DNA of 64,000 bases from a virus. Its lineage: Duplodnaviria; Caudoviricetes. Positions within the stretch are counted from its first letter, which is position 1. Each line of letters begins with the position of its first letter. This document shows positions 23,721-43,114 of this stretch, one piece after another. The translations under genes and the position numbers were made by a program. The notes below the pieces were generated by a model that saw only the letters and a program-made list of their open reading frames with translations, was not told the DNA's origin and searched no databases. The stretch spans positions 1 through 64,000 of the IMG/VR virus record IMGVR_UViG_2802429351_000001, one strand, 5' to 3'.

Positions 23721-24532
23721 TGAAAACAAGGACAGTACAAATACAATTGTATAATACTATAGATTTTTTAGTAAAGTATGGGAATGAGGTAAAATCAGGT
23801 ACATGGCAAGCCAATAAAGATTTCTCTAATGAGATCATGTTGGTTCAAAGAAATTTACAAATGGTTGTACCTTGTGGTGATGGATTAGACCTTAATAAAA
23901 TATGGGCTGATCAACCATGGGCAGAGGACCATTTTAATGAAAGGGTTGGGGGTATACCTACTAACCCTGGGGAGACATATAAATATTGGCCATACGCTAA
24001 TTTCAAAGAGGGTGATGATCCCTACCAAGATGGCAAGGTATTTAGTCATACCTATCAAGAAAGGTTTTGGCCAAGGATTAGTAAAATTTTCCAATATCAA
24101 TTAGAACCCCCAAAATTTGGTAGTGAATTGGTAAAACCAAAAGGTATAAGATATAAATATGGCGATTTACAAGATGTAATAAACCAACTAAAGGAAAACC
24201 CATTAACCAGGCAAGCTTATTTACCCATCTTTTTTCCAGAGGATACTGGGGCTGTTCATAAACAAAGGGTACCATGTACTTTAGGTTATTATTTTTGGAT
24301 AGAAAATAATAAACTATACATGAATTACATTATTAGAAGCTGCGATGCTCTTAGACACTTTAGAAATGACGTATATCTAACAATTAGACTATTACAATAT
24401 GTAGCAGAGAAATTAAATATTGGTTTAGGTGATACTACTTTTTATATCTTTAATTTCCATGTTTTCAAGAATGATTTATATGCTTTAAATAAAAGAGAAA
24501 AAAAGATATGTCAAGAACTAACAATAGGATAA
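23720..24532 (+). CDS. Thymidylate-synthase-fold protein 2, dCMP hydroxymethylase/methylase-like
   Basis: LKENPLTRQA, VPCTLGY.F, IRSCDALRHFRNDVY (compare T4 gp42 RSND..FGFRND), NFHVF. Confidence 0.8.
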   Translation: MKTRTVQIQLYNTIDFLVKYGNEVKSGTWQANKDFSNEIMLVQRNLQMVVPCGDGLDLNKIWADQPWAEDHFNERVGGIPTNPGETYKYWPYANFKEGDDPYQDGKVFSHTYQERFWPRISKIFQYQLEPPKFGSELVKPKGIRYKYGDLQDVINQLKENPLTRQAYLPIFFPEDTGAVHKQRVPCTLGYYFWIENNKLYMNYIIRSCDALRHFRNDVYLTIRLLQYVAEKLNIGLGDTTFYIFNFHVFKNDLYALNKREKKICQELTIG

Positions 24533-24936
24533 GTAGGGAAAATATGTTTATAGAGATCCTACAAACAATATCTAAAAGATCTACATGCCCCAGAAAACAA
24601 GTTGGGGCTATTTTAGTTAAAGAGAACAGGGTTATAGCTATGGGTTATAATGGGGTATTACCCGGGGTAAAGCCCGAAGAGGGTATAGACCATATAACTG
24701 GTGTTAGTAAAACCGTACATGCCGAGGCCAATATAATTTCATTTTGTGCTAAACATGGAATAGCAACCGCAGATTCAGAATTATACATAACCTTATCACC
24801 TTGCGTAAAATGTGCTGAGTTAATAGTTCAAGCCGGTATAAATAAGGTAAATTATATAGAACAGTATAGGGATACTTCTGGCCTAGAATTATTAACTAAA
24901 CAAAATATACAAATATGCCAAGTAAGTTTAAAATAA
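24508..24936 (+). CDS. dCMP deaminase
   Basis: STCPRKQVGAILV, GYNG, HAEAN, LSPCVKC. Confidence 0.92.
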   Translation: MSRTNNRISRENMFIEILQTISKRSTCPRKQVGAILVKENRVIAMGYNGVLPGVKPEEGIDHITGVSKTVHAEANIISFCAKHGIATADSELYITLSPCVKCAELIVQAGINKVNYIEQYRDTSGLELLTKQNIQICQVSLK

Positions 24937-27158
24937 TAAGAACTAAATCTACATTAAAAAGGGTTATTAGATATTGTAAACAAACTGGTTATGCTTGTGT
25001 CGATTTTGAAACCAATGCTTTACCTATAAACCATCCTTTATTTTACCCAACCGTACTCGGTATCACTTTTCAACCTGGTTCTTCATATGTATTACCGCTA
25101 GCACACTTTGATTCACCTTTTAAAAAATCTTGGCCAAAACTATTTAAATTATTTTGTAAGGAGGTAATAGAAAATCCTGAAATTATAAAGGTAGCCCAAA
25201 ATGCTAAATTTGAATATAAAATATTCTTAAAATATGGTTATGAGATAAAAGGTAGGATATTTGATACCATGTTAGCTAAATATCTTTTAGATGAAGAAAA
25301 ACCAATGGGTTTAAAACCTATGGTAAACAATTTTATACCAGAATACGCAGGATATGAGGAAGATTATGATGGTGCTAAATTACCTTGGGATCAAAAACCC
25401 TTAAAAGGTTTATCAGAATATTGTGGGTTAGATACTGACCTTACTTTAAGATTAATGTTTTTCTATGAGGATAAACTTATAAAAAATAATCTATATTCTT
25501 TATTCCGTAATATGTTGATGATGGGTGTTAGGGTATTAGGTGATTCTGAATACGGAGGTATGGATGTAGATATACCTTACCTAGATAACCTTATTATAGA
25601 ATATGAGAATTACCTAGAGGAAAATGATAAAAAAATTAGGAATACTAAAACCCTTAATAAATTCCAAAAATGGTTAGATCAAAGCAGGATTAATAAATTA
25701 ATGGACAAGGTTGTTCAGGAAATAGAAGAGGTAGAAGAAGAGGTAGAAGAAATCAAGGCCGAAATAAAAAGGCTAAAGAAAAAGGTTAAGAAGAAAAAAC
25801 ATAAAGGGGCTTTAGAATTAATACATAAAAATGAGGTTGTATTAAGACGTAAAGAAAAATCTATAAGAACCAGAGAAGATAAAATAGATAGGTATAGGGC
25901 TAGGGAGATGTCTACTAAAACAGAGGTTAAATGTTTAGAACCTATAAACTTTAATTCCTCAAACCAAATGGTGGATTTATTCTTTACATCACCCCAAGGT
26001 TTTCAATTTGATATTATAAAATACACAGTTGATAAGAAAACTAAAAAAGAAAGTGATAGACCTTCTACAGATGAAGAGGTACTAGAACAATTAAAACCTT
26101 TAGATAAATCTGGTTTTGTAGAAGGTTTATTAAGACATAGGGAATTAAGTAAACTATATTCTACTTATATAAAAGGTATTCGTGATAAATGCATTGATGG
26201 TAAAGTACATGCTAGGTTCTTATTAGAGGGGACGGTTACAGGTAGATTAAGTAGTCAAAACCCCAATTTACAAAATATACCTAGGGATACAACTGCTAAG
26301 GATATAAAGAAAATGTTTGTACCTCCAAAGGGTTATTATCTATTACAATTGGATTATTCACAGGCCGAATTAAGGGTAATGGCTGCACAGGCCGGGGAAG
26401 AAACCATGATCCGGTGGTTTAAAGAAGGAAAAGATATTCACCTTACCACCGCCTTAAAAATGTATAGGCAAGAAGAAAGGTATGATGAAATATTTGAGGT
26501 ATTAGAAAAAGAAGATAAAAAGGACCCAAGGTATACTGAGTGGAAGGTTAGAAGGAAATATGCTAAAACTATTAACTTTGGTATAATATATGGACAGGGG
26601 GTTCCTAAATTGGCTAACTCATTAGGCTGGACTATAGAGGAGGCTCAAACATTCTTAAATGAATATTTTGATACTTTCCCAAAAATTAGAGAATTTATCA
26701 AGCAACAACATAAAATTGCACACCGGGATGCTTTTGTAAGAAATGTATTTGGTAGAAAACGTAGATTACCTAAAATTGATTCATATGAGAAATGGGAAGT
26801 TGCCGAAGCTGAAAGACAATCGGTGAACGCACCAATCCAAGGGGCTGCTTCAGACTACACCCTATTCTCTTCAATTATAATTTGGGAAGAAGTAAGGAAA
26901 AAAAATATACCTATATATAAACCACAGGTATATACAGTACATGATTCCTTGGGTTATTATGTTAGGGCCGAAGATATACATGATGTAGTTCCTAAATTAG
27001 AAAAGATTTGTGCAAACCCTGAAACTATGGAATGGTTCAATTTTCAAATTGACGATGTTACTATGAAAGTAGATTTTGAGCTAAGTAGTATCAGTTGGCA
27101 AGCTTTAAAAACTTATGATCCAAAGATTGACTATACTAAACAAATTGGACTATTATAA
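24915..27158 (+). CDS. polA: Family A DNA polymerase with 3'-5' exonuclease
   Basis: DFET, QNAKFE, DTML, YCGLD, TGRLSSQNPNLQNIP, DYSQAELR, RKYAKTINFGIIYG, VHDS. Confidence 0.95.
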   Translation: MPSKFKIIRTKSTLKRVIRYCKQTGYACVDFETNALPINHPLFYPTVLGITFQPGSSYVLPLAHFDSPFKKSWPKLFKLFCKEVIENPEIIKVAQNAKFEYKIFLKYGYEIKGRIFDTMLAKYLLDEEKPMGLKPMVNNFIPEYAGYEEDYDGAKLPWDQKPLKGLSEYCGLDTDLTLRLMFFYEDKLIKNNLYSLFRNMLMMGVRVLGDSEYGGMDVDIPYLDNLIIEYENYLEENDKKIRNTKTLNKFQKWLDQSRINKLMDKVVQEIEEVEEEVEEIKAEIKRLKKKVKKKKHKGALELIHKNEVVLRRKEKSIRTREDKIDRYRAREMSTKTEVKCLEPINFNSSNQMVDLFFTSPQGFQFDIIKYTVDKKTKKESDRPSTDEEVLEQLKPLDKSGFVEGLLRHRELSKLYSTYIKGIRDKCIDGKVHARFLLEGTVTGRLSSQNPNLQNIPRDTTAKDIKKMFVPPKGYYLLQLDYSQAELRVMAAQAGEETMIRWFKEGKDIHLTTALKMYRQEERYDEIFEVLEKEDKKDPRYTEWKVRRKYAKTINFGIIYGQGVPKLANSLGWTIEEAQTFLNEYFDTFPKIREFIKQQHKIAHRDAFVRNVFGRKRRLPKIDSYEKWEVAEAERQSVNAPIQGAASDYTLFSSIIIWEEVRKKNIPIYKPQVYTVHDSLGYYVRAEDIHDVVPKLEKICANPETMEWFNFQIDDVTMKVDFELSSISWQALKTYDPKIDYTKQIGLL

Positions 27159-27172
27159 ATCAAATTAAGACA

Positions 27173-27643
27173 ATGAGGAAAAAACTTGATAAGTATATTA
27201 AAAAATCCGATTTAATGAATATATCATTAAAAGTGGGAGGGGAAAAATTTGCATTTAATCTATATGATGAATTAAGGATAGATGTAAATAGGATGACCGA
27301 AGAAATAAAAGAACAACCAAGTTATTATTCATTCCTTTGTTTATTATTAGTTAAACTAGAAACCTTAGAAGATGATAGGGAGATGGAATTTGAAAAGGTT
27401 AAAGCTGAATTAACCATAAAATACAAAGAGGAGACTGACCCCTTAACACATAAACCCTATAATAATGATGTGGCTAAGGCTAAGGTTATTGCCAACCCTA
27501 AATATAAAGCATACTTTAAAAAATATTCAAAAGCTAAAACCAATAAAGGTATAGTAAAATCTGCGGTAAAAGCTTTTGAACATAGGCAAGGTTTACTACA
27601 AACACTTTCCGCTAATGTTAGAAATGAAAGAAATAACATTTAA
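27173..27643 (+). CDS. UvsY-like recombination mediator
   Basis: Helical, ends LLQTLSANVR; located near SSB and RecA. Confidence 0.5.
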   Translation: MRKKLDKYIKKSDLMNISLKVGGEKFAFNLYDELRIDVNRMTEEIKEQPSYYSFLCLLLVKLETLEDDREMEFEKVKAELTIKYKEETDPLTHKPYNNDVAKAKVIANPKYKAYFKKYSKAKTNKGIVKSAVKAFEHRQGLLQTLSANVRNERNNI

Positions 27644-27654: not shown

Positions 27655-28029
27655 ATGAGAAAAATGGAAATAATGCTTAAAGATGATTTTGAGGTAGTTG
27701 AAGATGGTGCTACTTATATAGTACCTATTTATAAGGCTACCTCAGAAGGTTTAAAAGAGGTTATGGATACCGGTAAAAAGGATGACCCTTTTCAAAACCA
27801 AATTATTAATTTTGTTAGGGCAGAAAATAACCTTAACTCTGCTAACGTAGGTACATTACATGAACACCTTTTAAAGGTTATGATTTATGATCTTAAAATA
27901 AAGAATCAACATGTAAGGTCAAGGGAAACATATATAGCTATTACCAAAATGGAAGAAGCTTATAATGTTTTGCTTCAAAGGCAAATAGATAGGACTGATA
28001 GAGAAGTAATAGGAACAACAGAAGAATAA
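27655..28029 (+). CDS. Tad1-like anti-defence nucleotide-signal sponge
   Basis: INF..AE....G.LHEHLLKVM..DLK.......SRETYIAITKMEEAY..L..RQIDR.DREVIGT matches the Tad1 pattern IKFQKG...G....DLL.I..DRL.......SRENA.ALTH.EEAL.W...R..DR..R.V.GT (recalled). Confidence 0.7.
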   Translation: MRKMEIMLKDDFEVVEDGATYIVPIYKATSEGLKEVMDTGKKDDPFQNQIINFVRAENNLNSANVGTLHEHLLKVMIYDLKIKNQHVRSRETYIAITKMEEAYNVLLQRQIDRTDREVIGTTEE

Positions 28030-28041
28030 ATATAAATTATT

Positions 28042-28854
28042 ATGGCAGTAAAGAAAAAAAAGAAAGCTACCGTTAAAAGTAAAAAAGGGTCAGCTAAATC
28101 TACAACCAAAAAATCTTTAAGACAAAGGTTAAAAGAAAAAAAGGAAGACCTTAAAAAAAGAGGTCAACATAGTATAATCTTTAGACAAAAGGATGAAGGT
28201 ACTTTAAGGGTAAGAATATTACCGGTTGGTGAAGATAACGAATTTGTTCAAGAAGTTATGCAATTCTGGCTAAACAAAGAAGGTTCGGTTACTTCACCAG
28301 CTTCATTTGGTGAACCTTGTGCTATCTATGAAAAATATCAAGAACTAAAAGATTCCAAAGATGAGGCTGATTTAGAAATTGCTAAAAAATTACAACCTAG
28401 GAATAAATTCTTAATGCCGGTTCTAGTATATGAAGATCAAAAAGGTAAAAAAGTAGATACCACTAATAGTGGTAAATTACTACAAATTACCGGGGGTCTT
28501 TACCAGGAGATATTAGATCTTTATTTAGATGAAGATGAATGGGGGGATATGACCGACCCATTAAAAGGGTATGACCTTAAAATAACCAGAGAAGGTAAAG
28601 GTAAAAATGACACCAGCTACACTGTTCAACCTTGTAAGAATAGTAAACTTCCAAAGGAATACCGTAAGGAAATAGATTTAAGAAAATTGGTAGAAGAAGA
28701 AATGGATTCCTATGAAGATACCGAGAAAAAACTTAATTCTTTTATGGGGGCAGCCTTCGATGATGATGATGATGATGACGATGATAAACCTAAAAAGAAG
28801 AAAGGTAAAAAATCCAAAAAGGTAAAAAAGAAAAAAAGAGGTAAAGACATATAA
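28042..28854 (+). CDS. Single-stranded DNA-binding protein (gp32-like)
   Basis: LRVRILP, PCAI, DMTDPLKGYDLKITREG.G..TSY.V, acidic C-terminal tract. Confidence 0.8.
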   Translation: MAVKKKKKATVKSKKGSAKSTTKKSLRQRLKEKKEDLKKRGQHSIIFRQKDEGTLRVRILPVGEDNEFVQEVMQFWLNKEGSVTSPASFGEPCAIYEKYQELKDSKDEADLEIAKKLQPRNKFLMPVLVYEDQKGKKVDTTNSGKLLQITGGLYQEILDLYLDEDEWGDMTDPLKGYDLKITREGKGKNDTSYTVQPCKNSKLPKEYRKEIDLRKLVEEEMDSYEDTEKKLNSFMGAAFDDDDDDDDDKPKKKKGKKSKKVKKKKRGKDI

Positions 28855-28857: not shown

Positions 28858-29991
28858 ATGGCAAAGAAGAAAAAGAAATTAAAGGTATCATCTAGATCGG
28901 CCCTACGTAAAAAATACGTGGGGTCTGATACCGCTTCTAATATTGTAGTAGCGGCGGAAGATATGCTATGGTTACCAAGTAGGTTTATTGCCTTAAATGA
29001 TTTATTGGGTGGGGGGATACCATTCGGTAAAATACTTGAAATATTCGGTGAAGAATCGTCAGGTAAATCCTTATTAGCTTATGATTTTGCATATTGTTGC
29101 CAAAGGTTAGGGGGTGTAGTAATGTGGAATGATGCTGAACATGCTTTCACTGAATCTTGGGCTTTACAGAATGGTTTGGATTTAGATATGGTAGAATTGT
29201 ATACCAATAAATCTATTGAAAACCTAGCTGACTGGGCTATGGATATGGCTATATCAATTAGGCAGGAACTAGTAAATAATGAACCTATACTTTTGGTTGT
29301 AGATTCTATTGCTGCCATGGATTGTCTTGAGAATTTAGAATCACACCATATTGATGCAAAAGCTGAAATGGGAAATAGAGCTAAGGCTTTCGATAAATTA
29401 TTTAGAACCCGAAATAATATTTGGGAAAAATTAGGGGTAGCAGTATTAGCTATCAACCAATTAAGGTCTAAGATAGGGGCATCCCAATTCCAAGATCCTG
29501 ATACAACCCCCGGGGGGAAAGCTACAAAGTTCTATGCTTCTCAAAGATTAGGCGTTTATGGTGGTAAACAAATTAAAGGTAAAGTAAGGGGTCAAGAAGA
29601 TAGGGTTGGTAGAGAGACTTCTATTAGGGTTAAGAAAAATAAAGTAGCCCCACCTAAACCTACTATCAAAGGAGCTCAGGTTTATTTCAACCCAGATTAT
29701 AAGGAACCCATTGGTTTTAGTAAATATTATGGTTTACCTGATATATTATTAAGGCATGAGGTTTTAACCAAAGCTAAGGGGGCTTCTAAATATATGATGG
29801 GTGATAAAATGGTAGCTAGAGGAGAACCGAGTTTATTGAAAAAACTTCAAACTGATGATAAGTTTAGAAGTAAAATGATTCGTAAATCTGGTGTTAATAC
29901 TATTAGTAGAACAAGGAATAAGATGAAAAAATTAGGGCGTGATATGTTCGATGTTTCAAATTTAACTAAAGAAGATTTACAAAAAGATTAG
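28858..29991 (+). CDS. recA: RecA/UvsX recombinase
   Basis: LGGGIPFGKILEIFGEESSGKS, VVDSIAA, INQLRSKIG, TTPGGKATKFYASQRL, KKNKVAPP. Confidence 0.95.
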   Translation: MAKKKKKLKVSSRSALRKKYVGSDTASNIVVAAEDMLWLPSRFIALNDLLGGGIPFGKILEIFGEESSGKSLLAYDFAYCCQRLGGVVMWNDAEHAFTESWALQNGLDLDMVELYTNKSIENLADWAMDMAISIRQELVNNEPILLVVDSIAAMDCLENLESHHIDAKAEMGNRAKAFDKLFRTRNNIWEKLGVAVLAINQLRSKIGASQFQDPDTTPGGKATKFYASQRLGVYGGKQIKGKVRGQEDRVGRETSIRVKKNKVAPPKPTIKGAQVYFNPDYKEPIGFSKYYGLPDILLRHEVLTKAKGASKYMMGDKMVARGEPSLLKKLQTDDKFRSKMIRKSGVNTISRTRNKMKKLGRDMFDVSNLTKEDLQKD

Positions 29992-29992: not shown

Positions 29993-30883
29993 ATGGAAAA
30001 AAAGAAGTTATTAATTATAGATGGTAATAACCTTTTACATCGTGCTTATCATAAATTTAAGAAATTAAAAAGTAAATCCGGTACCAAAAGCTCAATGGCT
30101 TTTGGTTTTCCGCATATATTAAAATCTCTTATACACCAACAAAAACCAACAGATGTGCTTGTGGTATTTGATGGGGGTAGGCATAAAGAAAGGTTAAAGG
30201 TATTACCTGGATATAAAGATAGGGATAAGAATAGGAAAGATTTCGATATAGATGATTTTGTATCACAACAAAAAGATGTAAAGGAAATTCTTACTTGTTT
30301 AGGTATACCTTATGTATCAAAAAAAGGTTTAGAAGCCGATGATATAATATGGTTATATGCTAGAAAATATAAAAGAAAAGGCTCTGTAGTTATAGTTTCT
30401 ACTGATAAGGATTTTAACCAATTACTTTCAAATAGGGTTTCTATCTGGCACCCCTGGAAAAATAAAAGGATAACCCATAAAAACCTAGAAAAAGAATATG
30501 GTTATACACCTGATCAATGTGTAGATTATCTTTCACTGGTTGGTGATGATTCAGATAAAATTCCAGGAGCAAAGGGAATTGGTCATAAAACAGCTATAAA
30601 ATTTATAGAAGAATATGGTTCAATTAATGCTTATAGGTTAGGTAAAGGTGATGAAATGAAAAAATTCACACGTAAACAATCTGAGGAACTATTCTACCGA
30701 AACCGGACTTTAATAGATATACGCTTTTTTTGTAGGCGTTATTTAAAATTAAAAGAAATCCCTTTAAAATCACCTAAAGGTAAAAATATTAACAAAAAAG
30801 GTTTGTCATTGATTTGTAGGAAATATTCTATCACTACATTCATAGAACCTGCTTTTTTAAAACCCTTTAAACAATTATTATGA
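29993..30883 (+). CDS. 5'-3' exonuclease / flap endonuclease
   Basis: IDGNNLLHRAYH, VVFDG, EADDII, STDKDF.Q, LVGD.SDKIPG.KGIG.KTA. Confidence 0.93.
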   Translation: MEKKKLLIIDGNNLLHRAYHKFKKLKSKSGTKSSMAFGFPHILKSLIHQQKPTDVLVVFDGGRHKERLKVLPGYKDRDKNRKDFDIDDFVSQQKDVKEILTCLGIPYVSKKGLEADDIIWLYARKYKRKGSVVIVSTDKDFNQLLSNRVSIWHPWKNKRITHKNLEKEYGYTPDQCVDYLSLVGDDSDKIPGAKGIGHKTAIKFIEEYGSINAYRLGKGDEMKKFTRKQSEELFYRNRTLIDIRFFCRRYLKLKEIPLKSPKGKNINKKGLSLICRKYSITTFIEPAFLKPFKQLL

Positions 30884-36684: not shown

Positions 36685-37681
36685 AGCATGGGATATACTA
36701 ACACCAGAAGAAAAATCAGCTTTAAGCCTTTCAACTAATTATGGTAAAAGTAGTTGGGAGGCAGGGGAAATACTAAATAAACCCCATTATAAATATTTGG
36801 AGATACAGGCCAGGGCTAAAACCTTCTTCAAGATATTTACTATCTATTTTGAAAAAACACAAGGTAATATAATCCCTATAAATTCTGACATGACTTGGGA
36901 TTTACAAGAATTTATTTTATGCACTATACAGAATAGAAAAGGTTATAGAGAAACATTGAAAATAATAGGTAAAGAAAGCCCTTTATCACATAAGAAAGCA
37001 TCACAAAGATTATTAGCTTTAGAAAAACACTTAGATTTCCTAGAAAATCACCCTGATCGTATACATAGGGATTTACATGATCTCATTAAGGAATTTGACA
37101 GGTGGAATAATTTTAGGATATTACCCCCAGAACTCCAGGAACCTTCAGCTTTCAAAAGGCGTAATAAAACCAGGTTATTAAAACATCTTAAAAATCTTAA
37201 AGAGCTTAATCCCTTTGATATAGATAGGTTGATGTTTAAATTTTCTGCTAAAGATAAGTACAAAGGTAGAAAACTATACTTACCATTGGTATCAGATAAT
37301 TTCCCAGATGGATATCAAGTAATAATAATAAAAGGTACATCTAAAATTGTTAATTATATTTCAGTTAACCTTAACCTCTACATTTTCAAAGACAAATTAG
37401 AAGCGGATGACTATGGGTTTCTAGTGGAAGACTATCTTAATAAAGGAAAGAAAAATTGTAAACAAGGTCAAAAGTTTTGGCCACAATTCCGGTTAAAGGT
37501 AGGTAAAGCCTATAATTATGCCCAAGTTAATAATATAATACCTAGAAGGGTAAACCTAGAAACAGCTTTCCGGGATTTAGATAAGTTAACAGTAAATAAG
37601 ATCAAAACCAAAGAAGCCAATGGTATAAATATAGGAGACCCACAGAAATCTGCTAAACAGAGTAAATTCTGGGAAATATAG
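36674..37681 (+). CDS. Putative transcription factor with sigma-region-4-like HTH
   Basis: AWDILTPEEKSALSL....GKSSWEAGEILNK. Start chosen at the ATG at 36674, overlapping the NusG stop. Confidence 0.45.
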   Translation: MNSRAWDILTPEEKSALSLSTNYGKSSWEAGEILNKPHYKYLEIQARAKTFFKIFTIYFEKTQGNIIPINSDMTWDLQEFILCTIQNRKGYRETLKIIGKESPLSHKKASQRLLALEKHLDFLENHPDRIHRDLHDLIKEFDRWNNFRILPPELQEPSAFKRRNKTRLLKHLKNLKELNPFDIDRLMFKFSAKDKYKGRKLYLPLVSDNFPDGYQVIIIKGTSKIVNYISVNLNLYIFKDKLEADDYGFLVEDYLNKGKKNCKQGQKFWPQFRLKVGKAYNYAQVNNIIPRRVNLETAFRDLDKLTVNKIKTKEANGINIGDPQKSAKQSKFWEI

Positions 37682-37705
37682 GTGTTCTATTTATTTTTAT
37701 ATTTG
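37681..37705 (+). promoter_or_regulatory. GGTG-N13-TATATTTG promoter 1
   Basis: ggtg ttctatttatttt tatatttg; 28 nt before an ATG. Confidence 0.8.
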
Positions 37706-37733
37706 AACAAATAAATAAAAATACATATTAAAT

Positions 37734-38255
37734 ATGAAAACTAAAAAAAGAAAGGTTAATAATTATGAACAGGTTATGAAGCAGGCTTCGCACATGACTT
37801 TGAATGATTTAAAAAGACACTGTATATCAAGGGGGATGGATTTTCAAGAACTTATTGATGGTACTGTTATATCTTTACAAAATTGGTATCATAGAAATTC
37901 CAATAATGATATAGATCTTTCTAGGATAGCTAAATTTGATGATTGGTTAGAAAAAATATTAAGGGATAGGGGTAAAGAAGAATTAATCCACCCTCAATTA
38001 CGCTTAAGCTATATAAGTGAAAATCAGAGTGATGATAAACCTAAAAAGGAAAAACCTAAAAAAGAAAAGAAAAAACCCCGGGAAAAAAACAAACATGGTA
38101 TATTCAAAGGCACTAAAAAAGCTTATACCTTTGAATTACAACAAAAGGGTAAAACCCTAACACAGGTCATTAAGAAGGTAACTAGAAAGTTTCCAGATGC
38201 TTCAGATAAATCTATTAAAATCTGGTATAAAAAAGCGGCTAGACTTAATGGGTAG
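37734..38255 (+). CDS. Hypothetical Lys-rich protein, C-terminal HTH-like
   Basis: ORF behind a promoter; KTLTQVIKKVTRKFPDASDKSIKIWY. Confidence 0.65.
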   Translation: MKTKKRKVNNYEQVMKQASHMTLNDLKRHCISRGMDFQELIDGTVISLQNWYHRNSNNDIDLSRIAKFDDWLEKILRDRGKEELIHPQLRLSYISENQSDDKPKKEKPKKEKKKPREKNKHGIFKGTKKAYTFELQQKGKTLTQVIKKVTRKFPDASDKSIKIWYKKAARLNG

Positions 38256-38604
38256 TATTAAAAAAGATAGGTGGTATATAGTTGACCTAAGGAATAAAAC
38301 CCAAGATAAAAAAAGCTATTGGTTATTAAGGGTTAACTTTAGAACCAAAGAAGAGGCAAGGAAAGTACTGAATAAAAATTTAGGTGATAAAATATTATTC
38401 TTTGATATAGTTAAAGGTGTTACAGCTATAGAGTTTGGTTTTAGGTATCCTAAAAATACCAAAGGCCCATCATACCTGGGTTATCTTAGGAAATATGATT
38501 ATCCACCTGAACTTGAAACCATACAACAAAGAAAATCATATCGTACAAAATTCAGAAGATGGAAAAGGAATTACAAAGAAGAATTAAAAAGAAGTTGGGT
38601 ATGA
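38248..38604 (+). CDS. Hypothetical protein
   Basis: In-frame ATG at 38248 overlapping the previous stop. Confidence 0.6.
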   Translation: MGSIKKDRWYIVDLRNKTQDKKSYWLLRVNFRTKEEARKVLNKNLGDKILFFDIVKGVTAIEFGFRYPKNTKGPSYLGYLRKYDYPPELETIQQRKSYRTKFRRWKRNYKEELKRSWV

Positions 38605-38768
38605 AATTAGGTTTTATCATATTTTGGACATTAATAGCCTTATTCCTAATATTTTCACCCGTTTTACTATTGGAAGATGATTCTAAGATAGATGAGCTAT
38701 GTATAATTGTAGGCATCTATATCTTAGTTATATTACTTGAATATACTATCAAAATATTGAAAAAGTAA
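38601..38768 (+). CDS. Small two-helix membrane protein
   Basis: ATGA overlap; two hydrophobic helices. Confidence 0.55.
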   Translation: MKLGFIIFWTLIALFLIFSPVLLLEDDSKIDELCIIVGIYILVILLEYTIKILKK

Positions 38769-38772
38769 TCAT

Positions 38773-39549
38773 ATGGCTAGGAAAAAAAGAAACCGTAAAA
38801 AAAGGGATAAAAAACCTGGTTTATCAAAAGAATTTAGAAAAGAGATAGGTTTAAAACGTAAGAAAAATAAAAAGATAATTGACCCACCTATCACCGAGTT
38901 ACCTAAAGATAGGGAATATATTGAAGCTGAGAAAGAACAAGTAATTGAGGATATATTTGAAGGTAACCTTAATAGATTTATGAGAAAGTATTATAGGGTA
39001 TCAGAAAGGAACCTTATGACATTTTCTAAAGTAGTACCTAAATTACAAAAAGAAAGATCATCAAAAAGGGCTATAAGATGGTTATATAAAAAATGTAGGT
39101 GGCCAAGACACAGGCAAGAAATAATAAATATTCTATTAACCTTGGATAAATATTATGATGTAGAGTTTAGTAGGCCCAATATGGAGGTAGCTTTTGAGAT
39201 ATGGGAATTATTTTCAGATTACGAATTTTCTACATTTTTTAATAAAGCCTATGGTAAAACACTTGATAAAAAAGGTTTTGCTGGTATAAAAAGATTAAAT
39301 AGTAAACAGGCTTTAAAAGAACAAAAAGCTATTGGTTACGTAAAAATAAAGAAATTTGAAGAACTAGATAAAAATTTTGCTCATGTGTATTCCAATATAA
39401 AAGAGAATTTTATATACCCCTTTAATTTTTACCATGGTTTATATAAAGGGCCTAAAAAACATGAGCAAGTACAAATATATATTGGGCACCGATTATGTAA
39501 TGGTTTTCGTAGTGGGTTCTCAAGAGTTGATACTGGAATTAAAATGTAA
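38773..39549 (+). CDS. Hypothetical basic protein
   Basis: 258-aa ORF with Lys/Arg-rich N-terminus. Confidence 0.6.
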   Translation: MARKKRNRKKRDKKPGLSKEFRKEIGLKRKKNKKIIDPPITELPKDREYIEAEKEQVIEDIFEGNLNRFMRKYYRVSERNLMTFSKVVPKLQKERSSKRAIRWLYKKCRWPRHRQEIINILLTLDKYYDVEFSRPNMEVAFEIWELFSDYEFSTFFNKAYGKTLDKKGFAGIKRLNSKQALKEQKAIGYVKIKKFEELDKNFAHVYSNIKENFIYPFNFYHGLYKGPKKHEQVQIYIGHRLCNGFRSGFSRVDTGIKM

Positions 39550-39556
39550 TACTATT
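39550..39556 (+). promoter_or_regulatory. TACTATT box
   Basis: Directly after a stop codon, 24 nt before the ATG at 39581. Confidence 0.5.
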
Positions 39557-39580
39557 ACACATTAACCAAATAATATTAAG

Positions 39581-39847
39581 ATGGCGATAAAAAGAGAGGT
39601 AGTAATAAGAACTTTAAAAATACCTATAGAAAGAAAAGGTGATAAGGTAATTGAAAAAAACGTAGATTCTAAGGAGATTGAGAAATTGGGTGAAGAACCA
39701 AGGACCTTGGAAAATTCGATAGTTGATTTACCTGAGTTAACCCGGGAAATAAAAAACTTTAACCAAAGACAATTCAAGTATGCGGAAGATGATTCTAGCA
39801 TGGACTATATCTTAAAGAAAATAATTAGTAGTAAAAGTAAATCATAA
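39581..39847 (+). CDS. Hypothetical protein
   Basis: ORF with AT-rich leader. Confidence 0.55.
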   Translation: MAIKREVVIRTLKIPIERKGDKVIEKNVDSKEIEKLGEEPRTLENSIVDLPELTREIKNFNQRQFKYAEDDSSMDYILKKIISSKSKS

Positions 39848-39867
39848 ATTCTATAAATAAATTAATT

Positions 39868-40344
39868 ATGACAAAGTTAAAAGGAAAAGAAATAGTAGAC
39901 AGTTACAACCTAGGAGGTGGAATGGTACTTATTAAATTTGCCGATGGGACATTCATTACTGTATATTCTGTATCAGATGTTTTAGAACCTTCTCAATTTG
40001 GTTTTGATGAGGAAGCCACAGAAGAGGAGGATGAAGATCCCGATGAAGAGGAGGAAGAAGAAGACGAAGACCCCGAAGAGGAAGAAGAAGAAGATGAGGA
40101 TGAAGACCCCGAAGAGGAAGAAGAAGAAGATGAGGATGATGAATTAACCGCTGAAGATCTTAAGGAAATGGACTTCGATGATCTAGAGGATGTGGTTGAT
40201 GACAATGAACTCGATATAGAGGTGGATGAATATGAAGATGATGAGGAATCCCTACGATACGAAGTAGCAAAAGCCCTAGGTATCAAATTACCAAAACCTA
40301 AAAAATCCAAAGGTAAAGGTAAGAAAAAAGGTAAAAAGAAATAA
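39868..40344 (+). CDS. Highly acidic protein with E/D repeats and Lys tail
   Basis: Repeated EDEDP(D/E)EEEEE units, ending KPKKSKGKGKKKGKKK. Confidence 0.7.
   Translation: MTKLKGKEIVDSYNLGGGMVLIKFADGTFITVYSVSDVLEPSQFGFDEEATEEEDEDPDEEEEEEDEDPEEEEEEDEDEDPEEEEEEDEDDELTAEDLKEMDFDDLEDVVDDNELDIEVDEYEDDEESLRYEVAKALGIKLPKPKKSKGKGKKKGKKK
40021..40140 (+). repeat. Imperfect tandem repeat encoding EDEDPEEEEEE
   Basis: Three gaaga(t/c)ccc-anchored units; the last two (gaagaccccgaagaggaagaagaagaagatgaggat) are identical. Confidence 0.8.
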
Positions 40345-40352
40345 ACCCGGTA

Positions 40353-40372
40353 GCCCCCTTTAATTAGGGGGT
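40353..40372 (+). terminator. Putative terminator hairpin
   Basis: GCCCCCT-loop-AGGGGGT followed by T-rich sequence. Confidence 0.55.
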
Positions 40373-40425
40373 TCATTTTATTTAACAAGTAAATTTTTAA
40401 TAATCATTTTTTAATAAATTTTATT

Positions 40426-40749
40426 ATGGCAAAAGCAAAAGCAGCCGCTAAGACGACTAAGAAAAAAGAAAAGAAAGAATCTTTTCTAAAAGATAACTAT
40501 GAAGCAGTTATCAATGATTACAATGGTATCAGAACAGATGTTATGCATATCCGAGGCTACGGATGTATAGTAAGGGATGTTAACAAGGAAACTGGGGCTA
40601 TGACATCCGTATTTGTACCTGGGGTAAAACCTAAGAAGAAAAAGGATTACAGATACCTTATCGTAGACAAAGGGCCTAAACCTAAAAAAGATAAAGGAAC
40701 TAAGGCTGCCAAAAGTAAAAAATCTAAAACAGAATCCAGTGAAGATTAA
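40426..40749 (+). CDS. Lys/Ala-rich hypothetical protein
   Basis: Basic tails at both ends. Confidence 0.65.
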   Translation: MAKAKAAAKTTKKKEKKESFLKDNYEAVINDYNGIRTDVMHIRGYGCIVRDVNKETGAMTSVFVPGVKPKKKKDYRYLIVDKGPKPKKDKGTKAAKSKKSKTESSED

Positions 40750-40894
40750 TCTGGATAATTATAAAGATTCTGAAAAGGCTGGTAAAATTATCAGCCTTTT
40801 TTCTGAGCTTAGTCCCGAGGACCAATCAAGGTTAAAGGGGGATTTGGTGGCAAACTCTAGGTTAGGTGGTAATGATATGACCATAAGCACATGA
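40739..40894 (+). CDS. Small hypothetical protein (not in ORF track)
   Basis: GTG start, 51 aa MKINLDNYKD...MTIST*; fills the gap, with ATGA overlap to the next gene. Confidence 0.4.
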   Translation: MKINLDNYKDSEKAGKIISLFSELSPEDQSRLKGDLVANSRLGGNDMTIST

Positions 40895-41145
40895 GATTAG
40901 ATATAGAAGATAAGGATGAATTGGTAGTCTTAGAGGCATCACTATTAAAAATGGTAGATGAGATAATAGTTTCTAAGACTACCATTGAAGTCCTTATAGA
41001 GAATAATGGTAAAGAAGGTTATCCCCCTTATAATAAAGATGACCTAGAAATTTTGGATCAAGAACTAAAAGATGCCAAGAAAACTACTATCTATTTAAAA
41101 GGCCTTATAGAAAAGGTCAATATTTTAAAGAAGGTAAATGGATAA
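40891..41145 (+). CDS. Hypothetical protein
   Basis: Coupled ORF. Confidence 0.55.
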   Translation: MRLDIEDKDELVVLEASLLKMVDEIIVSKTTIEVLIENNGKEGYPPYNKDDLEILDQELKDAKKTTIYLKGLIEKVNILKKVNG

Positions 41146-41848
41146 GAAATTTTACATAAGGTATAGGATTTATTCTCAGAAAGCAGAAAACGCGGATAGA
41201 AATTATCCTAAAAGATTATGTAAAAGTTTAACTAGACTACACCAGAATATAAAAGATGATAATCTTTTTTGGGAAAGAGAGTTCTCTAAAGAAAAACTTT
41301 ATATCAGAACTTTTATACCCAAAAATCTGGAACACATTAATTGCCAATACTATAAACTAATAAAATATATCACCCAATACTTCGGGTGTTATGCGATATG
41401 GCAAACCAAACTTATACCCGGGGCTATTAAACCTATAAATACTTTTGCTATTTCAGGTTATGGCCAAGACTTCTTACTAGCTTATCACTACACTACAAAG
41501 ATAATAGATAACCTTAATGATATGAGGTTCAATATGACTGCTGAGTTTCGTAGGTTAAAAATAAATAAAAGGAGAAGGGGAGAAAGCACCATACATGATG
41601 AGAACTCCCAAATTAAATCAAGTACATTTTTCTATGAAAGCCTAAAGGAAATAGAAAAAGTATTACTAGAAAACCTAGAGCAAAGGCCTACTTATGTAGC
41701 TGTAAGACTGAAAGAAGTATATACTGAGAAATATCTAAGAAGGTTAAGAGTATTACATTTTAGGCAGTATAACTATAAAGGTTTGCCTAAAATAGAAAAT
41801 GCTTTTTCCCGGGAAAATAAATTCCAAAATCGCAGGATAATCAGGTGA
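41138..41848 (+). CDS. Hypothetical protein
   Basis: 236-aa ORF; central part loosely resembles the C-terminal domain of 45651..46373. Confidence 0.6.
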   Translation: MDKKFYIRYRIYSQKAENADRNYPKRLCKSLTRLHQNIKDDNLFWEREFSKEKLYIRTFIPKNLEHINCQYYKLIKYITQYFGCYAIWQTKLIPGAIKPINTFAISGYGQDFLLAYHYTTKIIDNLNDMRFNMTAEFRRLKINKRRRGESTIHDENSQIKSSTFFYESLKEIEKVLLENLEQRPTYVAVRLKEVYTEKYLRRLRVLHFRQYNYKGLPKIENAFSRENKFQNRRIIR

Positions 41849-41868
41849 TCTTTTATATTTTATATTTG
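41844..41868 (+). promoter_or_regulatory. GGTG-N13-TATATTTG promoter 2
   Basis: Exact spacing; overlaps the upstream stop codon. Confidence 0.8.
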
Positions 41869-41889
41869 TATCAAATAATTAATTAAAAT

Positions 41890-42060
41890 ATGAAAATAAA
41901 ATCAATAACTACCTATGTAGAAGATTCTAGCGATAATGAAGATCATGATACAACCGTTAATAATTTTATAACTAGTGTAATACCTATAAAATTAACACAT
42001 AAAGCTTTTGCCCAAGGTTGTATGGTTTTAACCACTATAATAGAATATAACGAGATATGA
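41890..42060 (+). CDS. Small hypothetical protein (56 aa, not in ORF track), paralog of 58770..58961
   Basis: MKIKSITTYVEDSSDNEDHDTTVNNFITSVIP...; first ATG after promoter 2. Confidence 0.6.
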   Translation: MKIKSITTYVEDSSDNEDHDTTVNNFITSVIPIKLTHKAFAQGCMVLTTIIEYNEI

Positions 42061-42428
42061 AAAATCTAAAATTCCATTTTGATAAAATAGACTTCAGTGT
42101 TCAGGCTTTAGAAAATCTAAATAATGAATACCAAGGTAAAAAAACGGGAGAAGTTTACACTAAAAGGTTTCATTACCTACATGGTAAAATCAAATATCAC
42201 ACTAATAAGATTTTAAACTATGGTAAGGGTTTAATAGATAAATGGGATATTAAAACCGTAGATGATAAAAATATTATCCACCAATATTCTATTTATTTAC
42301 CCCATGAATTAACCATTGACCAGGTAACAAGGCTGGTAATGATCAAAACAGGACATTCATATGTCTATCAAATTACTATAGGCGATACCATTGAAACCGG
42401 AAGTTTAATTAAAAACTCGAGTTCCTAA
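42057..42428 (+). CDS. Hypothetical protein
   Basis: ATGA-coupled ORF. Confidence 0.6.
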   Translation: MKNLKFHFDKIDFSVQALENLNNEYQGKKTGEVYTKRFHYLHGKIKYHTNKILNYGKGLIDKWDIKTVDDKNIIHQYSIYLPHELTIDQVTRLVMIKTGHSYVYQITIGDTIETGSLIKNSSS

Positions 42429-42436
42429 GAATTAGG

Positions 42437-42443
42437 TACTATA
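42437..42443 (+). promoter_or_regulatory. TACTATA box (variant)
   Basis: Intergenic, 36 nt before the ATG at 42480. Confidence 0.4.
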
Positions 42444-42479
42444 TATAAATCACTAAGTATAATTAAAATCGCTAAAATT

Positions 42480-43025: not shown

Positions 43026-43061
43026 TTACCCCTAACTGGTGGGATACTTTAACTAACCTGT

Positions 43062-43094: not shown

Positions 43095-43114
43095 CAATTT
43101 TAATACTTTTCAAG

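What the first reader, a model, noticed from the sequence alone, without database searches (positions are those of the whole stretch)
27655..28029. Tad1-like immune-signal sponge inserted between UvsY-like and SSB genes
Seen: GTLHEHLLKVMIYDLK...SRETYIAITKMEEAYNVLLQRQIDRTDREVIGT. Known (recalled sequence): Bacillus phage Tad1 has HGVIDSDLLEIVRDRLK...[33 protein letters not shown] and sequesters gcADPR (Thoeris) and CBASS cyclic nucleotides. The pattern matches position by position, but RENA becomes RETY and the MW Trp is lost. Inference: this is an anti-Thoeris/anti-CBASS sponge, possibly with altered ligand specificity, fixed inside the core replication operon.
Basis: partly seen in the sequence, partly recalled or inferred. 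Interest (0 to 1): 0.72.

Follow-up and report, generated by a model that had tools for sequence, protein, structure and literature searches.

The report
Divergent Tad1-family immune-signal sponge gene
A 124-residue gene in the replication block of an uncultured marine phage is a true but unusually diverged relative of Tad1, a phage protein that soaks up bacterial alarm nucleotides; this is a known kind of counter-defence gene, and its ligand still has to be measured.

Summary
The ORF at 27655-28029 (+, 124 aa) is real and holds the quoted motifs.

**Homology to Tad1 is secure.**
- A profile of 32 homologues hits every solved Tad1 at E = 6e-16.
- The AlphaFold model (pLDDT 87) matches only Tad1 over both domains (Foldseek probability 1.0, TM 0.60-0.66; VIA Z 8.2-8.7 over 102-108 residues).
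- The query alone is weak: Pfam PF24729 E = 0.21, PDB phmmer E = 0.045.

**Binding residues, mapped from the CbTad1 structures.**
- Kept: the phosphate-clamp Arg109 and Arg113, the C-terminal Gly-Thr lid, and the cyclic-trinucleotide pair Arg90/Thr97.
- Lost: the Gly-x-Lys loop, the adenine-stacking aromatic (Ile82) and the hexamer-interface Trp (Val105).
- Only this protein and one 74%-identical sister show that combination, among 143 family members.

**"Fixed in the core replication operon" is not supported.** The closest phages with the same PolA, UvsY-like, SSB, RecA, FEN order carry a GroES-like gene in that slot. Tad1 homologues elsewhere sit in unrelated contexts.

**Verdict:** a new, divergent member of a known sponge family. 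Sponge function is inferred and the ligand range is open. The scan noted this same stretch once before, in an overlapping window of this genome.

The parts
27655..28029 (+). Tad1-family (Acb2/Tad1 hairpin) gene, 124 aa plus stop
   Evidence: ORF. phrog_2428 at 1.9e-13. Family profile against solved Tad1 at E = 6e-16. Foldseek top 20 hits are all Tad1, probability 1.0, TM 0.60-0.66. VIA Z 8.2-8.7. ESM Atlas: 28 of 30 hits are Acb2/Tad1 hairpin clusters.
27691..27813 (+). N-terminal antiparallel beta-sheet domain (residues 13-53, five strands), with a longer beta3-beta4 region than most relatives
   Evidence: AF2 secondary structure. The G32..F53 segment is 20 residues here against 11-12 in 112 of 143 relatives.
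27814..27858 (+). beta4-alpha1 loop (residues 54-68), shortened and lacking the family's Gly-Ser-Lys. It is the equivalent of the CbTad1 loop that closes over gcADPR (G55, R57).
   Evidence: A56, E57 and N58 stand against G (130/143), S (121/143) and K (123/143). The loop is 10 residues against 13 in 104 of 143. The role of the CbTad1 loop is taken from 10.1101/2022.05.03.490397.
27859..28002 (+). C-terminal two-helix hairpin (residues 69-116). It carries R90 and T97 (cyclic-trinucleotide site), R109 and R113 (phosphate clamp), I82 in place of the stacking aromatic, and V105 in place of the interface Trp.
   Evidence: AF2 helices 69-86 and 90-116, pLDDT 96-98. Alignments to CbTad1. Residue frequencies. 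Residue roles.
28003..28026 (+). C-terminal tail (residues 117-124) with G120 and T121, equivalent to the CbTad1 lid 116-122. T122 replaces the family Tyr (CbTad1 N122).
   Evidence: G120 in 118/143, T121 in 138/143, Y122 in 126/143 with the query's T unique. Lid role.
27173..27643 (+). Upstream neighbour: helical protein, probably a UvsY-like recombination mediator
   Evidence: phrog_1069 at 2.3e-19 and phrog_2058 at 2.8e-14 (both of unknown function); phrog_231 UvsY-like only at 0.035. The AF2 model (pLDDT 81) has T4 UvsY as its best structural match: Foldseek probability 0.96-0.99, TMq 0.55-0.59, but E = 0.2-0.4. VIA Z 10.3-10.9, rmsd 2.5-3.3 A over 111-113 residues, barely above generic helical hairpins. 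Syntenic in relatives.
28042..28854 (+). Downstream neighbour: gp32-like single-strand DNA-binding protein
   Evidence: PF08804 at 8e-14; phrog_1192 at 2.2e-26.
28858..29991 (+). RecA/UvsX-like recombinase
   Evidence: PF00154 at 5.9e-39; phrog_97 at 1.4e-53.
24915..27158 (+). Family A DNA polymerase with 3'-5' exonuclease domain
   Evidence: PF00476 at 2.6e-86 and PF01612 at 1.5e-16.
29993..30883 (+). 5'-3' exonuclease / flap endonuclease
   Evidence: PF02739 at 1.8e-38 and PF01367 at 2.4e-16.

Best explanation
Gene 27655-28029 encodes a divergent member of the Tad1 family of phage 'sponge' proteins.

Shown: it has the Tad1 fold (a small antiparallel beta-sheet plus a two-helix hairpin). It keeps the two invariant arginines (R109, R113) that clamp the ligand phosphates in CbTad1, the Gly-Thr C-terminal lid, and the Arg90/Thr97 pair that binds cyclic trinucleotides at the hexamer's three-fold interface.

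Inferred: the gene is packed 11-12 nt from its neighbours in a long same-strand block of replication and recombination genes, so it is probably transcribed with them while the genome is being copied. The protein would form homo-oligomers (dimers, possibly a trimer of dimers). These would sequester nucleotide second messengers made by the host's Thoeris (cyclic ADP-ribose isomers) and/or CBASS (cyclic di- and trinucleotides) systems, so that the effectors are never switched on.

The pocket that holds gcADPR or cyclic dinucleotides in CbTad1 is remodelled here: a shortened loop without the Gly-x-Lys/Arg, Ile instead of the stacking aromatic, and Thr instead of the C-terminal Tyr/Asn. The interface Trp is Val. 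Its ligand range and oligomeric state may therefore differ from the characterised Tad1 proteins.

The host is probably a marine member of the Bacteroidota.
For: - Homology: the profile of 32 homologues hits CbTad1, CmTad1 and phiKZ gp184 at 6e-16, 1e-12 and 7e-4. A 49%-identical homologue hits Tad1 at 5e-7. 20 of the 32 homologues pass E <= 0.01 for PF24729, and most of a further 120 relatives carry it precomputed.
- Fold: the pLDDT 87 model matches only Tad1 chains over both domains. Other hits cover only the 44-54-residue hairpin.
- Residues: R109 is present in 143/143 family members and R113 in 142/143, and the query has both. R90, T97, G120 and T121 are also kept. Their roles come from mutagenesis and structures in 10.1101/2023.11.15.567273 and 10.1101/2022.05.03.490397.
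- Constraint: the only close sister (74% identity) keeps the same core.
- Accessory behaviour: the slot holds Cpn10 in relatives, the family is scattered among unrelated phages, and no Cpn10 or Tad2 occurs in this genome.
- Plausible targets in the host phylum: type V Thoeris, which signals with 3'cADPR and is inhibited by Tad1, is reported as especially enriched in Bacteroidota (10.64898/2025.12.03.692087).
- Host and habitat: the closest cultured-phage homologues are in Cellulophaga phages. The exact protein is on record in Tara data. Twelve GTG-N13-TATATTTG sites carry a Bacteroidota-type -7 box, against 0.06 expected.
Against: - No binding, oligomerisation or defence assay is possible here, so function rests on homology alone.
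- The query itself is below Pfam's threshold.
- Several CbTad1 ligand contacts are not conserved: R57 to N58, G55 to A56, F82 to I82 (alignment ambiguous by one residue), N92 to T, F87 to V, R78 to D, N122 to T.
- Loss of the interface Trp (a 5-residue interface mutant that includes it reduces Tad1 to dimers and abolishes cA3 binding) makes a hexamer, and hence the trinucleotide site, uncertain.
- In Hadary et al. 19 of 84 tested sponge homologues inhibited none of seven systems.
- The host and its defence repertoire are not identified.
- No promoter or terminator could be assigned, so expression timing is inferred from gene packing only.
Confidence: 0.75

Rival explanations
1. Canonical Tad1: the protein binds 3'cADPR/2'cADPR and the same CBASS nucleotides as CbTad1, in the same hexameric arrangement. 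On this reading the substitutions are neutral drift within a tolerant pocket.
For: All ten diverse Tad1 homologues tested by Leavitt et al. inhibited type I Thoeris. Anti-CBASS plus anti-Thoeris activity is reported as widespread among 20 further homologues. The phosphate-clamp arginines, the lid and R90/T97 are kept. Much of the clade already differs from CbTad1 at N92 (T, G or S in 137/143) and F87 (V in 124/143), so those two changes are not special to this protein.
Against: The combination of lost G56, K58, aromatic 82, W105 and Y122 is found only in the query and its sister among 143 sequences. The loop that closes over gcADPR is three residues shorter than usual and lacks the basic residue. 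W105 belongs to the interface whose mutation breaks the hexamer.
Confidence: 0.3
2. Tad1 fold put to a non-immune use. On this reading it is a replication/recombination accessory factor, or a folding helper that took over the place of the GroES-like gene, and is retained because of its position between the UvsY-like and SSB genes.
For: It sits inside a PolA, UvsY-like, SSB, RecA, FEN block with 11-12 nt gaps. Relatives have a co-chaperonin in exactly this slot. One homologue lies about 2 kb downstream of a RecA gene and another lies one gene from a Cpn60 gene.
Against: The family's contexts are otherwise unrelated to replication: next to terminase in Cellulophaga phage phi17:2, and among homing endonucleases, a hexapeptide transferase or a RyR-domain gene elsewhere. 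The invariant residues of the family are exactly the ligand-phosphate arginines of Tad1. Tad1 and Cpn10 share no fold, so occupying the same slot does not imply the same function.
Confidence: 0.07
3. Decaying or inactive remnant: a Tad1 gene that has lost its ligand pocket and is on its way out.
For: Five normally conserved positions are lost, and the score is below the Pfam threshold.
Against: The reading frame is intact and full length, and the model is confident (pLDDT 87, hairpin 96-98). A 74%-identical sister keeps the same core, with 81% identity over residues 66-124 against 68% over 1-65 (counted from the invariant-column list). GC content is the same as the neighbours', about 0.30. The exact protein recurs on at least five contigs from several data sources.
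Confidence: 0.08

Closest known systems
CbTad1 (Clostridium botulinum prophage Tad1; PDB 7UAV, 7UAW, 8SMD, 8KBE-8KBH)
   Same: Same length class (124 against 124-125 aa) and same two-domain fold (TM 0.60-0.66, Z 8.4-8.7). Residue numbering coincides from about 85 onward. R90, T97, E100, E101, R109, R113, R116, G120 and T121 are identical.
   Different: About 21-24% identity. The gcADPR/CDN contacts differ: R57 to N, G55 to A, R78 to D, F82 to I (probable equivalent), F87 to V, N92 to T, N122 to T. The hexamer-interface residues M104 and W105 become N and V. The beta4-alpha1 loop is shorter and the beta3-beta4 region is longer.
CmTad1 (PDB 8KBB-8KBD)
   Same: Same fold (Z 8.2-8.5). The cyclic-trinucleotide pair R88/T95 equals query R90/T97, and K96 equals K98.
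   Different: CmTad1 M102/W103/K106 correspond to N104/V105/Q108 in the query. Cm residues C87/A91/M92, which pack on the cA3 bases, correspond to S89/Y93/I94.
The ~116-125-aa PF24729 clade found in marine and other metagenomes, including Cellulophaga phage phi17:2 gp072 and phi4:1 (annotated 'hypothetical protein')
   Same: 35-54% identity over the full length. Shared motifs: FVR, G-x-LHEHL, MI-x-DL-x-x-KN, SRET, AITK, RQ-x-DR, GT.
   Different: The query and its sister form their own branch (SH-aLRT 100; nearest other sequence about 0.97 substitutions per site away). They alone lose G56, K58, aromatic 82, W105 and Y122 together.
phiKZ gp184 (PDB 8Y6V chain I), the virion-packaged Tad1 of phage phiKZ
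   Same: Its C-terminal residues 131-228 match the family profile (E = 7e-4). A review describes the phiKZ Tad1 as injected and as blocking CBASS and Thoeris (PMC13282480).
   Different: It is 230 aa with an N-terminal extension. It is a minor capsid protein processed by the head protease (PMC11297242). The window protein has no such extension and lies among replication genes, not structural genes.

Membership tests
Tad1 (Thoeris anti-defence 1) sponge family | Significant sequence-profile homology to experimentally characterised Tad1 proteins | tested here: met
   The A1 profile (query plus 31 homologues) hits CbTad1 at 6e-16 and CmTad1 at 1e-12. Homologue P0003 hits Tad1 at 5e-7. The query alone reaches only E = 0.045.
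Tad1 (Thoeris anti-defence 1) sponge family | Pfam Acb2_Tad1_hairpin (PF24729) above the gathering score | tested here: inconclusive
   The query scores 12.2 bits against a cut-off of 27 (E = 0.21; 12.6 bits). 20 of its 32 aligned homologues match at E <= 0.01, and most of 120 further relatives carry the domain. This is a sensitivity limit of a 58-position model, not evidence against membership.
Tad1 (Thoeris anti-defence 1) sponge family | Fold: N-terminal antiparallel beta-sheet plus C-terminal two-helix hairpin | tested here: met
   AF2 model: five strands (13-53) and helices 69-86 and 90-116, pLDDT 87. Foldseek top 20 hits are all Tad1 at probability 1.0. VIA Z 8.2-8.7 with 102-108 residues aligned, and only Tad1 covers both domains.
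Tad1 (Thoeris anti-defence 1) sponge family | Phosphate-clamp arginines (CbTad1 R109, R113; the R109A/R113A mutant loses gcADPR and cGAMP binding) | tested here: met
   The query has R109 and R113. They are present in 143/143 and 142/143 family sequences.
Tad1 (Thoeris anti-defence 1) sponge family | C-terminal lid that orders over the ligand (CbTad1 116-122, G120 backbone contact) | tested here: met
   R116, V118, I119, G120 and T121 are present. N122 of CbTad1 is T here (Y in 126/143).
Tad1 (Thoeris anti-defence 1) sponge family | Cyclic-trinucleotide site (CbTad1 R90, T97; CmTad1 R88, T95) | tested here: met
   The query has R90 and T97. These are R/K in 121/143 and T in 120/143. The site works only in a hexamer.
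Tad1 (Thoeris anti-defence 1) sponge family | Hexamer (trimer-of-dimers) interface: CmTad1 R88, K96, T95, Q98, E99 (polar) and M102, W103, K106 (hydrophobic) | tested here: inconclusive
   The polar set is kept (R90, K98, T97, E100, E101). The hydrophobic set is changed to N104, V105 and Q108; W is present in 118/143 relatives. No multimer prediction or experiment was available.
Tad1 (Thoeris anti-defence 1) sponge family | Homo-oligomerisation, high-affinity binding of immune nucleotides, and inhibition of Thoeris/CBASS in vivo | not testable with these tools
   This needs SEC-MALS, ITC or native-gel assays, and plaque assays.
Tad1 (Thoeris anti-defence 1) sponge family | Encoded by phages or prophages | tested here: met
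   The window is part of a 78,590-bp viral record with direct terminal repeats, rated 100% complete. It carries phage replication genes.
CbTad1-type gcADPR / cyclic-dinucleotide pocket (a specificity subclass, not the family) | F82 and R109 stack the adenine, N92 reads the Hoogsteen edge, R57 contacts the diphosphate, G55/R78/N122/H29 contact the ribose-ribose linkage, and F87 buttresses the ribose | tested here: not met
   Only R109 (with R113 and G120) is retained. The rest change: R57 to N58, G55 to A56, R78 to D79, F82 to I82 (F/Y in 105/143; alignment ambiguous by one residue), F87 to V87, N92 to T92, N122 to T122. The H29 equivalent is uncertain. This lowers 'binds gcADPR exactly as CbTad1 does', not 'is a Tad1-family sponge'.
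UvsY recombination mediator (for the upstream gene 27173-27643) | Homology or fold match to T4 UvsY | tested here: inconclusive
   phrog_231 at E = 0.035 only. There is no PDB hit by sequence or profile. T4 UvsY is the best structural match (Foldseek probability 0.96-0.99 but E = 0.2-0.4; VIA Z 10.3-10.9, rmsd 2.5-3.3 A, 111-113 residues), yet unrelated helical hairpins reach Z about 10. The position next to gp32-like SSB and the UvsX/RecA gene fits.

The most novel reading that the evidence does not exclude
The query and its sister may be a Tad1 sub-type with a re-tooled dimer-interface pocket: a short, non-basic beta4-alpha1 loop, an aliphatic residue instead of an aromatic base-stacker, and no C-terminal Tyr/Asn. 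It would capture a signal that characterised Tad1 proteins do not bind, such as canonical cADPR, N7-cADPR, His-ADPR, a cyclic mononucleotide or a still unknown Bacteroidota signal. It might also prefer bulkier cyclic dinucleotides over gcADPR, and work as a dimer rather than a hexamer.
Probability: 0.22. Interest if true: 0.6.

Novelty: new member of a known kind. Interest (0 to 1): 0.35.

Why it matters
Tad1 sponges are a well-described counter-defence family. About 1,600 non-redundant homologues have already been catalogued from IMG/VR (PMC12393519), so finding another one is not surprising.

Three things make this copy modestly useful:
- It comes from a phage of marine Bacteroidota, a host group in which Thoeris and sponge interplay has not been studied experimentally. 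Type V Thoeris is reported as enriched in that phylum.
- Its pocket combination is unique among 143 relatives. That makes it a cheap, well-defined candidate for asking which positions set ligand choice in Tad1. Sponges have repeatedly served as baits for discovering new immune signals.
- The swap of a GroES-like gene for a Tad1-like gene at one fixed point of an otherwise conserved replication module marks a specific accessory-gene slot, which could be mined for other counter-defence genes in related phages.

Tried and rejected
**Weak or spurious first hits**
- A direct Pfam scan of the query gave only sub-threshold hits (PF24729 at E = 0.21, TMEM240 at E = 0.088). The TMEM240 hit was rejected as chance.
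- The top phmmer PDB hit, 'Engineered Protein OR366' (E = 9e-9), is an artefact. It sums five weak repeat matches to query residues 4-41, each with an individual E-value of 41-670 and none passing on its own.
- P0008 (1009 aa, 17 repeated stretches matching query 41-81) was treated as a repeat or low-complexity artefact and left out of the alignments.

**Searches that found nothing or could not run**
The contig contexts of database homologues, including the sister P0002, could not be fetched that way.
- Attempts to get the sister's DNA or other close relatives found nothing: the search for related loci with the window protein in viral contigs, with P0002 in genome contigs and viral contigs, and with the two-sequence alignment in metagenome contigs. 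No dN/dS could be calculated, and the sister's synteny rests only on its UvsY-like (72%) and Tad1-like (74%) proteins both coming from a single 4,712-bp NCBI contig.
- Alignment A1 was too diverse for pattern scanning. The narrower A2 worked.
- The supplements of PMC12393519 are not held, so I could not check whether this protein is already in their Tad1 list.

**Uninformative signals**
- The sigma-70 promoter and terminator scan gave counts equal to shuffles.
- The Bacteroidota full promoter pattern TTTG-N18-22-TAnnTTTG is not enriched.
- Composition shows no sign of a foreign island at the gene.

**Limits**
- The PDB sequences could not be put into my own alignment without typing them. Residue mapping to CbTad1 and CmTad1 therefore rests on the HMMER alignments printed. 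It is ambiguous by one residue around position 82 and uncertain in the beta-sheet (H29).
Full report
**1. Observation**

It starts 11 nt after the stop of gene 27173-27643 and ends 12 nt before gene 28042-28854. The window is the first 64 kb of a 78,590-bp viral record with direct terminal repeats, rated 100% complete.

It is printed letter for letter in the HMMER alignment to PDB chains 8KBH and 8KBG, and the same sequence family includes 7UAV. It belongs to the Clostridium botulinum prophage protein CbTad1, not to the Bacillus phage in which Tad1 was discovered.

**2. Is the resemblance more than chance?**

On its own the query is borderline:
- phmmer against PDB gives E = 0.045-0.06 for five CbTad1 constructs and 0.23 for CmTad1, over query residues 50-122.
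- Pfam's Acb2_Tad1_hairpin model scores 12.2 bits against a cut-off of 27.
- The nominally best PDB hit, a designed armadillo-repeat protein, is a sum of sub-significant repeat matches and was discarded.

The link becomes firm through relatives:
- A search of 1.84 billion representatives found 80 relatives at E <= 1e-3.
- One of them, 49% identical, hits solved Tad1 at 5e-7.
- A profile of the query plus 31 full-length relatives (A1) hits every solved Tad1 at 6e-16 (CbTad1) to 1e-12 (CmTad1), and nothing else except phiKZ gp184 at 7e-4.
- That phiKZ protein is a 230-aa inner-capsid protein (PMC11297242). A review describes the phiKZ Tad1 as injected into the host and as blocking CBASS and Thoeris (PMC13282480).
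- Twenty of the 32 aligned sequences match PF24729 individually, and most of 120 further relatives carry it.
- The ESM Atlas feature search gives Acb2/Tad1 hairpin clusters for 28 of 30 hits, with a top score of 0.95.

**3. Fold**

AlphaFold2 with alignment A1 gives a confident model: pLDDT 87, pTM 0.76, and 96-98 over the helices. It has five short strands (residues 13-53) followed by two long helices (69-86 and 90-116).
- Foldseek against the PDB returns only Tad1 chains in the first twenty ranks (probability 1.00, TM 0.60-0.66). The next hit drops to E = 0.36.
- VIA-align gives Z 8.2-8.7 with 102-108 residues aligned for Tad1. All other matches with Z 6-7.7 cover only the 44-54-residue hairpin.
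- Against BFVD the top hits include proteins named 'Acb2/Tad1 hairpin domain-containing' and the mis-annotation 'ABC transporter ATPase', the molecule name that PDB entry 7UAV also carries.

Homology and fold are therefore settled.

**4. Residue-level comparison**

From about residue 85 the query and CbTad1 numbering coincide. The published roles are as follows:
- F82 and R109 sandwich the adenine.
- N92 reads the Hoogsteen edge.
- R57, R109 and R113 bind the diphosphate.
- The G55 backbone NH, together with H29, R78 and N122, contacts the ribose-ribose linkage.
- F87 buttresses the ribose.
- Residues 116-122 form a lid.
- R90 and T97 bind cyclic trinucleotides at the three-fold interface.
- The CmTad1 residues Q98, E99, M102, W103 and K106 hold the hexamer together. 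Mutating all five gives dimers that no longer bind cA3.

I tabulated these positions in a 143-sequence alignment of the family. The query keeps:

| Position | Family frequency |
|---|---|
| R109 | 143/143 |
| R113 | 142/143 |
| G120 | 118/143 |
| T121 | 138/143 |
| R90 | R or K in 121/143 |
| T97 | 120/143 |
| K98, E100, E101 | kept |

It departs from its own family at:

| Position in query | Usual family residue |
|---|---|
| A56 | G in 130/143 |
| E57 | S in 121/143 |
| N58 | K in 123/143 (the CbTad1 R57 position) |
| I82 | F or Y in 105/143 (the probable F82 equivalent; alignment ambiguous by one residue) |
| R88 | P in 132/143 |
| Y93 | S or A in 121/143 |
| V105 | W in 118/143 |
| T122 | Y in 126/143 |

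The beta4-alpha1 loop, which closes over gcADPR in CbTad1, is 10 residues here against 13 in 104 of 143 relatives. The beta3-beta4 region is 20 residues against 11-12.

Scored over eleven functional positions, the query's pattern is shared only by its 74%-identical sister P0002. The two form a fully supported pair (SH-aLRT 100), about 0.97 substitutions per site from the nearest other sequence.

Some differences from CbTad1 (N92 to T/G/S, F87 to V, R78 to D) are common to the whole clade and are not special to this gene.

My reading is that the phosphate-binding core and the trinucleotide pair are under constraint. The specificity-determining rim of the dimer pocket and the hydrophobic part of the hexamer interface have been remodelled.

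**5. Context**

The gene sits in a same-strand block:

| Coordinates | Gene | Evidence |
|---|---|---|
| 24508-24936 | dCMP deaminase | |
| 24915-27158 | family-A DNA polymerase | |
| 27173-27643 | helical protein (UvsY-like candidate) | |
| 27655-28029 | Tad1-like gene | |
| 28042-28854 | gp32-like SSB | PF08804 at 8e-14, |
| 28858-29991 | RecA/UvsX-like recombinase | PF00154 at 5.9e-39, |
| 29993-30883 | flap endonuclease | |

For the upstream helical protein, T4 UvsY is the best structural match (Foldseek probability 0.96-0.99, TMq 0.55-0.59, E = 0.2-0.4; VIA Z 10.3-10.9 over 111-113 residues). The sequence evidence is weak (phrog_231 at E = 0.035; no PDB sequence or profile hit), and unrelated helical hairpins score almost as high. 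'UvsY-like' is therefore favoured but not shown.

The two nearest phages by polymerase (MT121964 and MT121960, from human faeces in Ireland; 38-43% identity) have the same order: PolA, UvsY-like, one gene, SSB, RecA, FEN. The one gene in the slot is a 124- or 128-aa Cpn10/GroES-like protein (PF00166 at 1.7e-11 and 1.5e-9). The window's genome has no Cpn10 and no Tad2.

Conversely, the Tad1-like family shows no consistent context:
- It occurs in 13 IMG/VR contigs that share no other gene with this phage within 5 kb, apart from a RecA about 2 kb upstream in two of them.
- It occurs in Cellulophaga phages phi17:2 and phi4:1, among small hypothetical genes upstream of the terminase.
- Neighbours elsewhere include GIY-YIG homing endonucleases, a papain-like protease, a Cpn60, a hexapeptide transferase and a RyR-domain protein.

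GC content across the gene (about 0.30) equals that of its neighbours. The gene thus occupies a replaceable accessory slot in an otherwise conserved module. It is not 'fixed' in it, and it shows no compositional sign of recent foreign origin.

The sister protein and a 72%-identical copy of the upstream gene both come from a single 4,712-bp NCBI contig. The arrangement is therefore probably shared by at least one related phage. This is an inference, because the contig could not be fetched.

**6. Host and habitat**

- The only cultured-phage homologues are in Cellulophaga (Flavobacteriia) phages.
- One relative is annotated from a Bacteroidota MAG.
- The exact protein is on record in Tara and other marine or metagenomic sources, on a contig of 79,074 bp.
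They carry the Bacteroidota-type -7 box.

A marine Bacteroidota host is likely but not proven. Type V Thoeris, which signals with 3'cADPR and is inhibited by Tad1, is reported as especially enriched in Bacteroidota (10.64898/2025.12.03.692087). So plausible targets exist in that phylum.

**7. Mechanism**

Best explanation (confidence 0.75): the protein is made together with the replication proteins and assembles into homo-oligomers. It sequesters Thoeris and/or CBASS nucleotide signals through the conserved Arg109/Arg113 clamp and C-terminal lid. If a hexamer still forms, it also uses the Arg90/Thr97 trinucleotide site.
- Shown: ORF, homology, fold, residue conservation pattern, variable slot.
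- Inferred: expression timing, oligomerisation, ligand binding, host.

Rivals:
- A fully canonical CbTad1-like specificity (0.3; it overlaps with the best explanation).
- A non-immune replication or chaperone role (0.07).
- A decaying gene (0.08).

**8. Novelty**

Tad1 is a known family with thousands of catalogued homologues, including a systematic IMG/VR survey. I could not check whether this very protein is in that list, because the supplements are not held. It is best filed as a new, divergent member of a known kind.

The most novel reading not excluded is a re-tooled pocket with a different ligand or a dimeric state (probability about 0.2).

Noticed in passing
L003:4859-5233 (MT121964.1) and L004:5298-5684 (MT121960.1): In the two nearest phages with the same PolA, UvsY-like, SSB, RecA, FEN order, the slot that holds the Tad1-like gene here holds a 124- or 128-aa Cpn10/GroES-like gene (PF00166 at 1.7e-11 and 1.5e-9). 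The window's genome has no Cpn10 at all. This is a defined accessory-gene slot in a conserved replication module.
   Followed up: yes
L004:602-4867 (MT121960.1); L003:669-3806 and L003:3937-4431 (MT121964.1): The PolA of MT121960 is a single 1421-aa ORF. It matches the window's 747-aa PolA in three blocks separated by two in-frame inserts of about 260 and 330 residues, which look like inteins, one with a LAGLIDADG-like motif. In MT121964 the polymerase match is split into two blocks about 730 nt apart, and a 164-aa ORF with an endonuclease-like look sits after the polymerase match, overlapping the start of the UvsY-like gene. The window's PolA has no insert.
   Followed up: no
family alignment, e.g. 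P0031, P0038, P0041, P0051, P0059, P0067, P0070, P0188-P0193: In a subset of the Tad1-like family, R90 (usually to E), T97 and W105 are lost together while R109 and R113 stay. These proteins have probably given up the hexamer and cyclic-trinucleotide site and kept only the dimer pocket. The query differs from them in keeping R90 and T97 while losing W105.
   Followed up: partly
PDB 8Y6V chain I (phiKZ gp184), residues 131-228: The family profile hits this inner-capsid protein of phiKZ at E = 7e-4. A review describes the phiKZ Tad1 as injected into host cells, so a sponge is delivered with the DNA in that phage, whereas here it is encoded among replication genes.
   Followed up: partly
P0007, P0010, P0018, P0019, P0024, P0025, P0034, P0039 and others: Many relatives are 165-350 aa long, with the Tad1-like part at the C-terminus and sometimes two matched stretches. 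They may be N-terminally extended or tandem forms, or mis-called starts. They were not examined.
   Followed up: no
window 28027-28035; P0001, P0196: A variant of this protein on short ENA contigs reads two residues further (…TEEKI). This fits TAA changed to AAA at the stop codon, followed by ATA and the next TAA. A 140-aa form also exists.
   Followed up: no
L006:3434-5112 and L007:5375-7053: Two GIY-YIG homing-endonuclease genes (SegE-like, and GIY-YIG plus NUMOD3) lie directly downstream of the Tad1-like gene in a 131-kb viral contig. A RecA gene and a papain-like protease gene lie upstream.
   Followed up: partly
window 37681-55766: Twelve exact GTG-N13-TATATTTG sites, all on the + strand, against 0.06 expected by chance. 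None lies in the replication block that holds the Tad1-like gene. Another report of this scan has already described them.
   Followed up: partly
window 24508-24936: A dCMP/cytidine deaminase gene (PF00383 at 3.4e-22) overlaps the start of the PolA gene by 22 nt. It belongs to the nucleotide-modification cluster already flagged elsewhere in this scan.
   Followed up: no
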